Shown here piece after piece: positions 3,403 through 3,650 of a stretch of DNA of 12,536 nucleotides. Each line of letters begins with the position of its first letter. Within the stretch, counting starts at the first letter, position 1. The DNA comes from a virus (lineage: Duplodnaviria > Heunggongvirae > Uroviricota > Caudoviricetes): IMG/VR virus record IMGVR_UViG_2751185956_000013; one strand, 5' to 3'. A model generated the notes under the pieces. It made no database searches. It had not been told where the DNA came from and saw only the letters and a program-made list of their open reading frames with translations. Both the position numbers and the translations under genes were made by a program.

Positions 3403-3650
3403 TATCCCTACCAATCCCTACTAACTGGCTCAGGCCACGAATGGCAAGGCTTTCAGACTGGTAGGCATTCAATTTTGTTGCCCTACATAACCCTACTTAT
3501 CCCTACTAAATCACTTCAACGGCATTTTGCTGCCTGTTTTATTTGGTAGGGATATGTAGGGATAAGTAGGGATAAAAATATATATCCCTACCTAGTTTAA
3601 AGCCTTGCTACGTCTGGCCTCGTCTCGTTTTTAGTAGGGCAGTAGGGATA
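3403..3650. repeat. iteron array, candidate replication origin of the island
   Basis: About 11 copies of a 9-10 bp motif GTAGGGATA / TATCCCTAC in both orientations: CCCTAC orientation at 3403-3412, 3414-3422, 3479-3487, 3489-3497, 3499-3507; three direct GTAGGGATA copies at 10-bp spacing at 3546-3574; inverted copy at 3583-3592; GTAGGG copies at 3634-3650. An AT-rich stretch (3571-3585) lies between opposed copies. Located in the 320-bp non-coding gap immediately 3' of the primase gene. Confidence 0.6.

What the first reader, a model, noticed from the sequence alone, without database searches (positions are those of the whole stretch)
3403..3650. Iteron-type replication origin immediately downstream of the primase-helicase gene
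About 11 copies of GTAGGGATA / TATCCCTAC, several at exact 10-bp (one helical turn) spacing and in opposed orientations flanking an AT-rich stretch, fill the only sizeable non-coding gap in the replication operon. This is the architecture of iteron origins bound by an initiator; in phage P4 the alpha protein binds repeated octamers at ori and crr. The motif here differs from the P4 octamer TGTTCACC as I recall it, so the island would have its own initiator-iteron specificity.
Basis: partly seen in the sequence, partly recalled or inferred. Interest (0 to 1): 0.6.

Follow-up and report, generated by a model that had tools for sequence, protein, structure and literature searches.

The report
Satellite island replication origin, new iteron
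The repeats are real and are almost certainly the replication origin of an E. coli phage-satellite island (a PICI), the same origin design already validated in EcCICFT073 and related to phage P4's ori, but with its own recognition sequence, so this is an ordinary new member of a known kind.

Summary
Observation confirmed. The 320-bp gap (3349-3668) between the primase-helicase gene and the next gene holds 11 exact GTAGGG cores, 7 of them exact GTAGGGATA, plus one degenerate site. Only 3 other cores occur in the remaining 12.2 kb.

The 12 sites form six mirror pairs around a dyad axis at about 3526, in the layout << > <<< | >>> < >>. Both triplets are phased at exactly 10 bp.

The window is a chromosomal E. 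coli island at yicC-dinD, a catalogued PICI attachment site. Its gene order is int-alpA-...-pri-rep-gap-hyp-ssb-perC, syntenic with EcCICFT073.

The Pri-Rep is a full-length homologue of P4 alpha, and its C-terminus matches the solved P4 origin-binding winged helix (1KA8).

The gap after the experimentally validated EcCICFT073 pri-rep has the same 12-site layout with GGTAGAYA. EcCIRM13514 and several Enterobacterales relatives have it with the P4 octamer GGTGAACA. P4's own ori is exactly one six-site half.

The iteron sequence follows the helicase/winged-helix module, not the primase domain.

It sits where P4 has crr but is built like P4 ori, and the AT-rich part is short. New specificity allele of a known origin type; modest interest. 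All function is inferred, none tested.

The parts
3403..3650 (.). Whole iteron array: 12 sites in the layout << > <<< | >>> < >> (read on the coding, minus, strand), forming six mirror pairs about a dyad axis near 3526
3634..3650 (+). Gene-proximal iteron pair (GTAGGGCAG at 3634, GTAGGGATA at 3642; 8-bp spacing). It ends 18 nt after the pri-rep stop codon.
   Evidence: the same pair sits 17-45 nt after the stop in all relatives
3597..3619 (.). Conserved non-iteron imperfect palindrome (RGCCAGAC-N5-CAAGGCTT), gene-proximal copy. In EcCICFT073 and the P4-octamer alleles this position holds an AT-rich ~40-bp stretch instead.
   Evidence: sequence comparison across iteron classes; function unknown
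3583..3591 (-). Single inverted iteron (GTAGGGATA)
3572..3585 (.). 14-nt pure A/T run (ATAAAAATATATAT) between convergent iterons; least stable duplex of the gap and the candidate unwinding site
   Evidence: 20-mer at 3571-3590, dG -18.9, rank 14 of 12,515; the sequence GGGATATATAT is kept in the GTAGGG-class relatives L006, L007, L008, L059 and L079 but not in L009
3546..3574 (+). Inner iteron triplet, three exact GTAGGGATA at 10-bp phasing. Copy number varies by exact 10-bp units in E. coli: 4 in MSB1_1D, 2 in F11.
3507..3545 (.). Central 39-bp spacer containing the dyad axis (64% A+T, small GGCA..TGCC hairpin). Its sequence is not conserved among relatives.
3478..3506 (-). Second inner iteron triplet (GTAGGGCAA, GTAGGGTTA, GTAGGGATA) at 10-bp phasing
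3461..3469 (+). Degenerate single iteron (GTAGGCATT), mirror partner of 3583-3591. It is an exact iteron in Buttiauxella, Shimwellia and RM13514 and has one mismatch in EcCICFT073.
3432..3456 (.). Distal copy, inverted, of the conserved RGCCAGAC-N5-CAAGGCTT element
   Evidence: (I1)
3403..3421 (-). Distal iteron pair (GTAGGGATA, GTAGGGATT; 10-bp spacing)
3371..3398 (-). Conserved tail element CAAAAAGATTCTAT + G-run (poly-G of 6-9 in close relatives), lying between the last iterons and the next gene. It is present in all alpha-type alleles and resembles the A/T palindrome after each P4 crr unit.
   Evidence: role unknown
3669..6110 (-). pri-rep: P4-alpha-type primase-helicase-initiator (Zn ribbon, Toprim, D5_N, SF3 P-loop DUF5906, C-terminal Pox_D5/winged helix). 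The mechanical ORF runs to 6167; RefSeq starts at the ATG at 6110.
2579..3049 (-). Island-encoded SSB, second gene downstream of the origin; likely replication accessory
   Evidence: same gene order in EcCICFT073

Best explanation
The 3403-3650 array is the replication origin of an E. coli phage-inducible chromosomal island (PICI-type satellite). It is recognised by the island's own P4-alpha-type Pri-Rep protein, encoded immediately upstream.

Proposed mechanism (inferred by homology, not tested here):
1. After induction, the operon from alpA through pri-rep is transcribed.
2. The C-terminal winged-helix domain of Pri-Rep binds the 9-10-bp iterons (consensus GTAGGGATA).
3. Each half-origin offers six sites (2+1+3), one per subunit of an SF3 hexamer, so two hexamers assemble on the two arms of the dyad.
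4. The duplex opens at the weakest point, the A/T run at 3572-3585 and/or the central spacer.
5. The helicase self-loads and the N-terminal Toprim primase primes. The island SSB, encoded two genes downstream, coats the strands.

The iteron core (GGG at positions 4-6 of GTAGGG) sets a private specificity. It separates this allele from sister alleles that use GTAGAG, GTAGAY or GTGAAC.

Shown here: the repeats, their symmetry, their conservation, their co-variation with the helicase/winged-helix module, and their homology to a validated origin. Inferred: binding, stoichiometry, melting site and firing.
For: 1. Repeat enrichment and geometry.
2. Initiator homology:
- P4 alpha, 38.5% identity over 96%.
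- Identical five-domain architecture.
- C-terminal residues 723-815 match PDB 1KA8, the P4 origin-binding domain. Residues 408-668 match 7OLA, SaPI5 PriRep.
- For SaPI Reps the C-terminal winged helix binds iterons that lie immediately downstream of rep around an AT-rich centre (PMC9371898).
3. Homology to a tested origin:
- The EcCICFT073 gap after pri-rep has 9 exact GTAGAY sites (11 GGTAGA) in the same << > <<< | >>> < >> layout.
- Its Pri-Rep residues 144-584 are 54% identical to residues 379-819 here.
- That pri-rep-ori segment drives plasmid maintenance, and deleting either part abolishes or reduces it (PMC6092414).
4. Natural domain swaps:
- The protein of L003 is 88% identical over residues 20-370 (primase). 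Its C-terminal module is an unrelated DUF927, and it carries 12 copies of GACAACA (GAGACAAC-type repeats) instead.
- L005 shares the primase domain too. Its C-terminus is unrelated and it has different repeats.
5. Graded co-variation:
- C-terminal module at least 85% identical (Kluyvera, Atlantibacter, Buttiauxella, Shimwellia): GTAGGG is kept.
- Rosenbergiella (80%) and Symbiopectobacterium: GTAGAG.
- Yersinia pekkanenii: GTAGAT. Tolumonas: GTAGAC.
- Tatumella, Rahnella, Erwinia, Serratia and EcCIRM13514: GTGAAC, the P4 octamer.
- All lie at the same distances from the stop codon.
6. Selective conservation: iteron cores are 90% identical against 63% for non-core gap positions in five diverged relatives. 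No random placement out of 20,000 reached this.
7. P4 ori has the same six-site half-layout and spacing: 19<, 29<, 72>, 94<, 105<, 115< against 22<, 30<, 78>, 98<, 108<, 118< here.
8. Island context:
- int, AlpA, Ash/epsilon-like, AntA, pri-rep, ssb and perC, all on one strand.
- yicC-dinD is a listed PICI attachment site.
Against: - No experiment was done: binding, replication and the initiation point are all inferred.
- The AT-rich element is much shorter here than in EcCICFT073 or the SaPIs. The 40-bp AT-rich arm of the sister alleles is replaced by a GC-containing palindrome, so the melting site is uncertain.
- The conservation statistic uses an alignment that the repeats themselves help to anchor.
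- One-mismatch site calls carry roughly one false positive per gap.
- In P4 the element at this position (crr) is an auxiliary cis element, not the start site.
- No helper phage, induction or packaging evidence exists for this island, and no lambda-like cosN was found.
Confidence: 0.85

Rival explanations
1. The array is a crr-like auxiliary cis element, an enhancer or looping partner bound by Pri-Rep, rather than the place where replication starts. The true start site would lie elsewhere.
For: It occupies exactly the position of P4 crr, directly after the alpha gene. The tail element (A/T palindrome after the last pair) resembles the end of each crr unit. Alignments of crr units to the distal half score above shuffles in some relatives (RM13514, z 11-13).
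Against: - There is no second iteron cluster anywhere in the island or its flanks. Only one GTAGGG lies outside the gap across the 24-kb locus L001, and the single exact 9-mer at 10185 has no counterpart in other alleles.
- The gene-proximal half has the P4 ori layout.
- The homologous EcCICFT073 segment plus pri-rep was sufficient for plasmid maintenance without any other island DNA (PMC6092414).
- The crr alignments are ambiguous in L019, L023 and L038.
Confidence: 0.06
2. The repeats are mainly operators or regulatory sites that control transcription of the downstream hyp-ssb-perC genes, or autoregulate the operon. They would be bound by Pri-Rep or by another island protein.
For: The array lies between two co-oriented gene blocks, so RNA polymerase must cross it. 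Conserved non-iteron elements (3371-3398, 3432-3456, 3597-3619) are unexplained. Iteron origins of plasmids commonly double as autoregulatory sites (general knowledge).
Against: - No sigma-70-like promoter and no terminator on the coding strand were found in 3250-3750.
- The repeats track the Pri-Rep helicase/winged-helix module while the downstream genes differ between alleles. L003 has ssb directly after the gap; L004 has unrelated genes.
- Twelve sites in a 250-bp dyad with 10-bp phasing are far more than an operator needs.
- A regulatory side-role would not exclude origin function.
Confidence: 0.05
3. The array is a non-functional repetitive relic, from slippage-generated tandem repeats or a palindromic insertion, with no sequence-specific role.
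For: Copy number changes by 10-bp units between strains, as expected for slippage. The region is a long imperfect palindrome.
Against: - Core positions are conserved across genera while the spacers diverge.
- The same 12-site plan recurs with five different core sequences across Enterobacterales and Aeromonas, always after the cognate gene.
- A homologous array is experimentally required in EcCICFT073 (PMC6092414).
Confidence: 0.02

Closest known systems
Gram-negative PICI origin, prototype EcCICFT073 pri-rep-ori (Fillol-Salom et al. 2018, PMC6092414)
   Same: - Position directly 3' of pri-rep.
- Two opposed iteron sets.
- Identical 12-site plan << > <<< | >>> < >>.
- Helicase/winged-helix module 54% identical.
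- Same downstream synteny, hyp-ssb-perC.
- Same kind of island: int, alpA, one transcription direction, PICI attachment site.
   Different: - Iteron core is GTAGGG(ATA) rather than GTAGAY(A).
- The N-terminal primase is the P4-type Zn-ribbon/Toprim domain, where EcCICFT073 has an unrelated 143-residue N-terminus.
- The gene-proximal AT-rich arm is replaced by a second copy of a GC-containing palindrome, which makes this origin a more complete dyad.
- No capsid genes in this island.
- Not tested experimentally.
Phage P4 ori and crr with alpha protein (GenBank X51522 annotation; PDB 1KA8; biochemistry from my own knowledge of Ziegelin et al. 1993/1995)
   Same: - Initiator is a full-length alpha homologue with the same domain order and a matching origin-binding domain.
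- P4 ori is a six-site << AT > <<< unit with nearly the same spacings as each half here.
- Some relatives of this Pri-Rep use the P4 octamer itself.
- The array sits where P4 has crr.
   Different: - The octamer TGTTCACC is absent from the gap.
- There is one compact palindromic element, where P4 has two elements 4.5 kb apart.
- There is no t-alpha-like terminator.
- The island lacks psu, delta and sid.
SaPI origins and Rep/PriRep self-loading helicases (Ubeda et al. 2007, from my own knowledge; PMC9371898)
   Same: - 6-12 short iterons immediately after rep.
- Opposed sets around an AT-rich centre.
- A C-terminal winged helix reads the iterons.
- SF3 helicase proposed to load as two hexamers (PMC9371898).
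- Detectable sequence similarity to SaPI5 PriRep, 7OLA, E = 4e-11.
   Different: - Distant homology only.
- SaPI iterons are 5-6 nt and their AT-rich centre is longer.
- Gram-positive host and divergent regulatory layout.
SV40 large T antigen and papillomavirus E1 origins (own knowledge)
   Same: Works alike: an SF3 helicase-initiator, short sites arranged as a palindrome next to an A/T tract, and double-hexamer assembly. A weak Pfam hit of a sister Pri-Rep to PPV_E1_C was seen.
   Different: No family membership is claimed. The origin-binding domains are different, the hosts are eukaryotic, and no primase is fused.

Membership tests
PICI replication origin (SaPI / EcCI type) | Lies immediately 3' of the rep or pri-rep gene | tested here: met
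   The first iteron ends 18 nt after the stop codon at 3669-3671. The array fills the gap 3349-3668.
PICI replication origin (SaPI / EcCI type) | Two sets of short iterons in opposite orientation flanking an AT-rich region | tested here: met
   There are six sites on each side of the axis near 3526. The AT-rich part is short: a 14-nt A/T run and a spacer of 64% A+T.
PICI replication origin (SaPI / EcCI type) | Cognate initiator is an SF3-type helicase with a C-terminal winged-helix iteron reader | tested here: met
   Pfam finds D5_N, DUF5906 and Pox_D5. Sequence matches to 7OLA and 1KA8. Binding itself was not tested.
PICI replication origin (SaPI / EcCI type) | Homologous in layout to an experimentally validated PICI ori | tested here: met
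   The EcCICFT073 gap shows the same 12-site plan, and the helicase/winged-helix module is 54% identical.
PICI replication origin (SaPI / EcCI type) | Island context: integrase, alpA, unidirectional operon, PICI-specific attachment site | tested here: met
   Searches give the gene content. yicC-dinD is listed for EcCIRM13514 in Table S1 of PMC6092414.
PICI replication origin (SaPI / EcCI type) | Rep-dependent autonomous replication of the cloned segment | not testable with these tools
   Needs the plasmid-maintenance assay used for EcCICFT073.
PICI replication origin (SaPI / EcCI type) | Helper-phage induction and packaging of the island | not testable with these tools
   No helper is known. 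No lambda-like cosN was found beyond chance.
Phage P4 ori/crr system | Alpha-type primase-helicase-initiator | tested here: met
   38.5% identity over 96% of the protein, and the same five Pfam domains.
Phage P4 ori/crr system | Type I octamer TGTTCACC as the repeated site | tested here: not met
   There are no copies in the gap. The only two copies lie inside the coding sequence at 4453 and 5882.
Phage P4 ori/crr system | Bipartite cis elements (ori plus crr) about 4.5 kb apart | tested here: not met
   There is a single cluster. Only 3 GTAGGG cores lie outside the gap in the window and 1 outside it in the 24-kb locus L001.
Phage P4 ori/crr system | Six-site ori unit << AT > <<< | tested here: met
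   The site maps of P4 ori and of the gene-proximal half coincide within a few bp. The AT-rich arm is replaced here.
P4-like satellite (criteria of Moura de Sousa & Rocha 2021, PMC8628076) | [quoted passage not shown] | tested here: not met
   Integrase, AlpA (PF05930), Ash/epsilon (PF10554) and alpha (PF03288) are present. No Psu (PF07455) or delta (PF04606) hit appears in any annotated ORF. Sid has only a custom profile and could not be tested.
Plasmid iteron replicons (pSC101, R6K, F, RK2 class) | 17-22-bp directly repeated iterons bound by a helicase-less Rep, with DnaA boxes and host helicase loading | tested here: not met
   The sites are 9-10 bp and lie in inverted sets. The initiator carries its own helicase and primase. 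No DnaA box (at most 1 mismatch) or IHF consensus occurs in the gap.

The most novel reading that the evidence does not exclude
The compact 6+6 dyad seen here may be the general, possibly ancestral, origin plan of the whole P4-alpha / PICI Pri-Rep family.

- Each six-site half would dock one hexamer through its six winged-helix domains, giving a double hexamer as in SV40 and E1.
- P4's separate ori would be one detached half, with crr a rearranged remnant of the other.
- Single-base steps in iteron positions 4-6 (GGG, GAG, GAY, then GTGAAC) would create mutually orthogonal replicons, letting several satellites coexist in one cell.
Probability: 0.35. Interest if true: 0.5.

Novelty: new member of a known kind. 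Interest (0 to 1): 0.3.

Why it matters
It assigns a function to the only large non-coding gap of an island carried by about 1.4% of complete E. coli genomes (77 of 5,426).

It adds one more initiator-iteron specificity (GTAGGGATA) to the PICI / P4-alpha replicon family.

The comparative series assembled here could be useful in practice. It comprises the same 12-site plan, five different cores, and natural domain swaps. That is a ready-made system for dissecting how a winged-helix domain reads its iteron, and for building orthogonal self-loading replicons.

It also links the P4 ori layout to the PICI origin. [quoted passage not shown]

None of this changes the current understanding of satellite replication.

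Tried and rejected
- **Rfam scan of 3000-4000.** Only sub-threshold miRNA-precursor hits (26 and 21 bits against gathering scores of 100 and 76). These are artefacts of the palindrome.
- **Promoter/terminator scan.** No promoter. The one terminator-like hairpin is on the non-coding strand, in the central spacer.
- **Lambda cosN search.** Chance level.
- **Exact GTAGGGATA at 10185 inside alpA.** Considered as a second, crr-like or regulatory site. Rejected because no other allele has an extra copy of its own iteron outside its ori.
- **P4 crr as the distal half of the compact origin.** Alignment scores are inconsistent between relatives. Kept only as a suggestion.
- **Residue-level specificity code in the winged-helix wing.** Y-L-T-R appeared in GTAGGG alleles and Y-K-T-R in GTAGAG/GTAGAT alleles. 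EcCICFT073 (Y-I-T-R, GTAGAY) and Tolumonas (Y-L-T-R, GTAGAC) break the pattern, so no claim is made.
- **Full-text search for the motif string.** Only unrelated primer sequences were returned.
- **P4 primary papers.** Not in the searchable library. P4 biochemistry is therefore cited from my own knowledge plus the X51522 annotation.
- **DnaA-box and IHF consensus searches.** Nothing in the gap.
- **Xenorhabdus/Photorhabdus relatives.** They show only weak ATGTATA/CTATACA repeats (3-4 copies), which I did not resolve.
- **Figure 2a of PMC6092414.** It prints iteron sequences of several E. coli PICIs but is not held. I therefore could not exclude that this iteron, or that of the similar CfCIP10159 island, was already drawn there.

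Full report
**1. The observation**

The window carries its genes on the minus strand. The gap 3349-3668 lies between the stop codon of an 813/832-residue primase-helicase gene (3669-6110/6167) and a 100-codon ORF (3046-3348).

- GTAGGGATA with at most one mismatch occurs 12 times in the window, 9 of them within 3403-3650. Expectation is 1.72, and none of 200 shuffles reached 12.
- The exact 6-nt core GTAGGG occurs 14 times in the window, 11 of them in the gap. A twelfth, degenerate copy (GTAGGC) lies at 3461.
- On the coding strand the sites read << > <<< | >>> < >>.
- They form six mirror pairs: 3406/3642, 3416/3634, 3461/3586, 3481/3566, 3491/3556 and 3501/3546. All are centred within 1.5 bp of position 3526.
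- Both triplets are phased at exactly 10 bp.
- As a single strand the 258-nt stretch folds into one long hairpin, z = -8.7.
A 14-nt A/T run at 3572-3585 lies between convergent sites, and its 20-mer ranks 14th least stable of 12,515 in the window. The central spacer is 64% A+T.
- The gap is the largest intergenic space of the island.

**2. Context**

- The window is 100% identical to a chromosomal segment of E. coli MB53 between yicC and dinD.
- 77 of 5,426 complete E. coli genomes carry the gap at 95% identity or more, always on the chromosome.
- The island encodes a tyrosine integrase, AlpA, an AntA/B protein, an Ash/Icd-like protein, the primase-helicase, an SSB and a PerC homologue. These are all on one strand.
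- This is the make-up of Gram-negative phage-inducible chromosomal islands (PICIs). Table S1 of Fillol-Salom et al. 2018 lists yicC-dinD as a PICI attachment site, for EcCIRM13514.
- The order pri-rep, gap, small ORF, ssb, perC is the same as in the prototype EcCICFT073.
- By the seven-component definition of P4-like satellites (PMC8628076) the island has integrase, AlpA, an epsilon/Ash domain and alpha. It lacks Psu and delta, and Sid could not be tested, so it is not a P4-like satellite.

**3. The initiator**

- The protein aligns with P4 alpha over 96% of its length at 38.5% identity.
- It has the same five Pfam domains in the same order: Zn_Ribbon_Prim, Toprim_3, D5_N, DUF5906 and Pox_D5.
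- Residues 723-815 match PDB 1KA8, the P4 alpha C-terminal origin-binding domain (E = 4e-8).
- Residues 408-668 match 7OLA, the SaPI5 PriRep helicase.
- For the SaPI proteins the C-terminal winged helix is the iteron reader. Their origins consist of 6-12 iterons directly after rep, around an AT-rich centre, and two hexamers are proposed to load there (PMC9371898).

**4. Comparative test of the origin**

The gap after pri-rep was examined in related islands.

*(a) Same module, same iteron.*
- E. coli 39EVA has a gene 90.7% identical at the nucleotide level. Kluyvera, Atlantibacter, Buttiauxella and Shimwellia have C-terminal modules 85-97% identical.
- All keep GTAGGG sites at the same positions, while the spacers diverge.
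- Core positions are 90% identical against 63% for the rest of the gap in five diverged relatives. None of 20,000 random placements reached that value. One caveat: the repeats help to anchor the alignment.

*(b) Diverged module, shifted iteron, same plan.*
- Rosenbergiella and Symbiopectobacterium use GTAGAG.
- Yersinia pekkanenii uses GTAGAT, and Tolumonas uses GTAGAC.
- EcCICFT073 uses GTAGAY.
- Tatumella, Rahnella, Erwinia psidii, Serratia aquatilis and EcCIRM13514 use GTGAAC, which is the P4 type I octamer GGTGAACA.
- In all of them the << > <<< | >>> < >> plan and the distances from the stop codon are retained.

*(c) Natural domain swaps.*
- The Ec1115 protein is 88% identical over residues 20-370, the primase. 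It continues into an unrelated DUF927 module, and its gap holds 12 copies of GACAACA (GAGACAAC-type repeats).
- Another allele shares the primase but has a different C-terminus and CCTGTACC-type repeats.
- Conversely, EcCICFT073 Pri-Rep has an unrelated N-terminus but a helicase/winged-helix module 54% identical, together with a related iteron.

The iteron therefore follows the helicase/winged-helix module, not the primase.

*(d) Copy-number variation.* Within E. coli, the inner triplet gains or loses exact 10-bp units. MSB1_1D has four copies. F11 has two, and its primase gene is frameshifted.

**5. Relation to validated systems**

[quoted passage not shown] That paper describes Gram-negative PICI origins as two iteron sets flanking an AT-rich region just 3' of the initiator gene.
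- The present array is a homologue of that origin with a different core.
- In P4 (X51522 annotation) the element directly after alpha is crr, and ori is 4.5 kb away.
- Mapping the octamers shows that P4 ori, read on the alpha-coding strand, is a six-site unit << AT > <<<. Its sites are at 19, 29, 72, 94, 105 and 115. The gene-proximal half here has sites at 22, 30, 78, 98, 108 and 118.
- P4 ori aligns best to that half of the P4-octamer compact origins, z 9-21.
- The correspondence of crr to the other half is only suggestive.
- There is no second cluster in this island.
- The array is thus crr-like in position, ori-like in design, and is the only candidate origin.

**6. Mechanism proposed**

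Pri-Rep binds the twelve sites through its winged-helix domains. Six sites per arm fit one hexamer per arm. The duplex opens at the A/T run and/or the central spacer. The SF3 helicase self-loads, the fused Toprim primase primes, and the island SSB assists.

All of these steps are inferred from homology. None was tested here.

- No DnaA box or IHF consensus is present in the gap, consistent with a self-contained initiator.
- No promoter or coding-strand terminator was predicted in the gap, so the origin is probably transcribed through.

**7. Rivals**

- A purely auxiliary crr-like role is unlikely. There is no other cluster, and the EcCICFT073 homologue suffices in a plasmid.
- A purely regulatory operator role does not explain twelve phased sites that co-vary with the initiator. 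A side-role in regulation is not excluded.
- A non-functional repeat is contradicted by cross-genus conservation of the plan.

**8. Loose ends**

Two conserved non-iteron elements remain unexplained:
- an imperfect palindrome, RGCCAGAC-N5-CAAGGCTT, present on both arms here;
- an A/T palindrome plus G-run at 3371-3398, which carries a variable poly-G tract.

In this allele the palindrome replaces the AT-rich arm seen in EcCICFT073 and the P4-octamer alleles. The melting site is therefore less obvious here than in the textbook cases.

**9. Verdict**

The feature is a new specificity allele of a known origin type, PICI / P4-alpha. It is not a new kind of system.

Whether this exact iteron was already shown in Fig. 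2a of the 2018 paper could not be checked. The same applies to the similar island CfCIP10159.

Interest is modest. The most useful by-product is the comparative series: one 12-site plan, at least five cores, natural domain swaps, and the observation that P4 ori is one half of the plan.

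Noticed in passing
window 3371-3379 (within 3371-3398): A homopolymer tract (C9 on the + strand, G9 on the coding strand) varies from 6 to 9 G among close relatives. It sits in a conserved element (CAAAA..TTT.. then G-run) about 25 nt upstream of the start of the 100-codon ORF. It could be slippage-prone regulation or an assembly error.
   Followed up: partly
window 3432-3456 and 3597-3619: An imperfect palindrome, RGCCAGAC-N5-CAAGGCTT, is conserved across alleles with different iterons (EcCICFT073, Tatumella, Erwinia, Symbiopectobacterium, Yersinia). 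It matches no DnaA or IHF consensus and its role is unknown.
   Followed up: partly
L005 6768-6943 and 7915-8040 (E. coli 72322051416_S37): An island with a different Pri-Rep allele (Toprim + DUF5906) has two clusters of CCTGTACC/GGTACAGG-type repeats about 1 kb apart. This is a possible bipartite, P4-like ori/crr arrangement.
   Followed up: no
window 1-825; L001 7527-8351 and 8702-9526: Two dinD genes lie in tandem at the island edge, and the island-side copy is the one in the window (Bro-N domain). Only one copy of the published attachment core GAGCAGATTCAA (1 mismatch) was found, inside the 3' end of yicC, so the dinD-side boundary is undefined.
   Followed up: partly
window 7077-7340 and 7337-7651: RefSeq names these small island ORFs 'nicotinic acetylcholine receptor subunit beta' and 'ubiquinol-cytochrome C reductase'. 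They have no Pfam hits, so the names look like propagated mis-annotations.
   Followed up: no
window 4453-4460 and 5882-5889: The P4 type I octamer TGTTCACC occurs twice inside the pri-rep coding sequence (0.28 expected; 5 of 200 shuffles reach 2). This is probably chance.
   Followed up: no
window 10185-10193: One exact GTAGGGATA lies inside the 5' part of alpA. No other allele has an out-of-origin copy of its own iteron, so this is probably chance.
   Followed up: yes
L016-L048 and others (Xenorhabdus, Photorhabdus, Proteus loci): Relatives with ~60% identical C-terminal modules show only 3-4 copies of ATGTATA/CTATACA-like words after the gene. Their origin plan was not resolved. Several Xenorhabdus genomes carry 2-4 such loci.
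   Followed up: no
L009 (contig labelled Chryseobacterium sp. 18061): A Pri-Rep module 86% identical, with GTAGGG iterons, sits on a contig attributed to a Bacteroidota genus. Contamination or mislabelling of the assembly seems more likely than real transfer.
   Followed up: no
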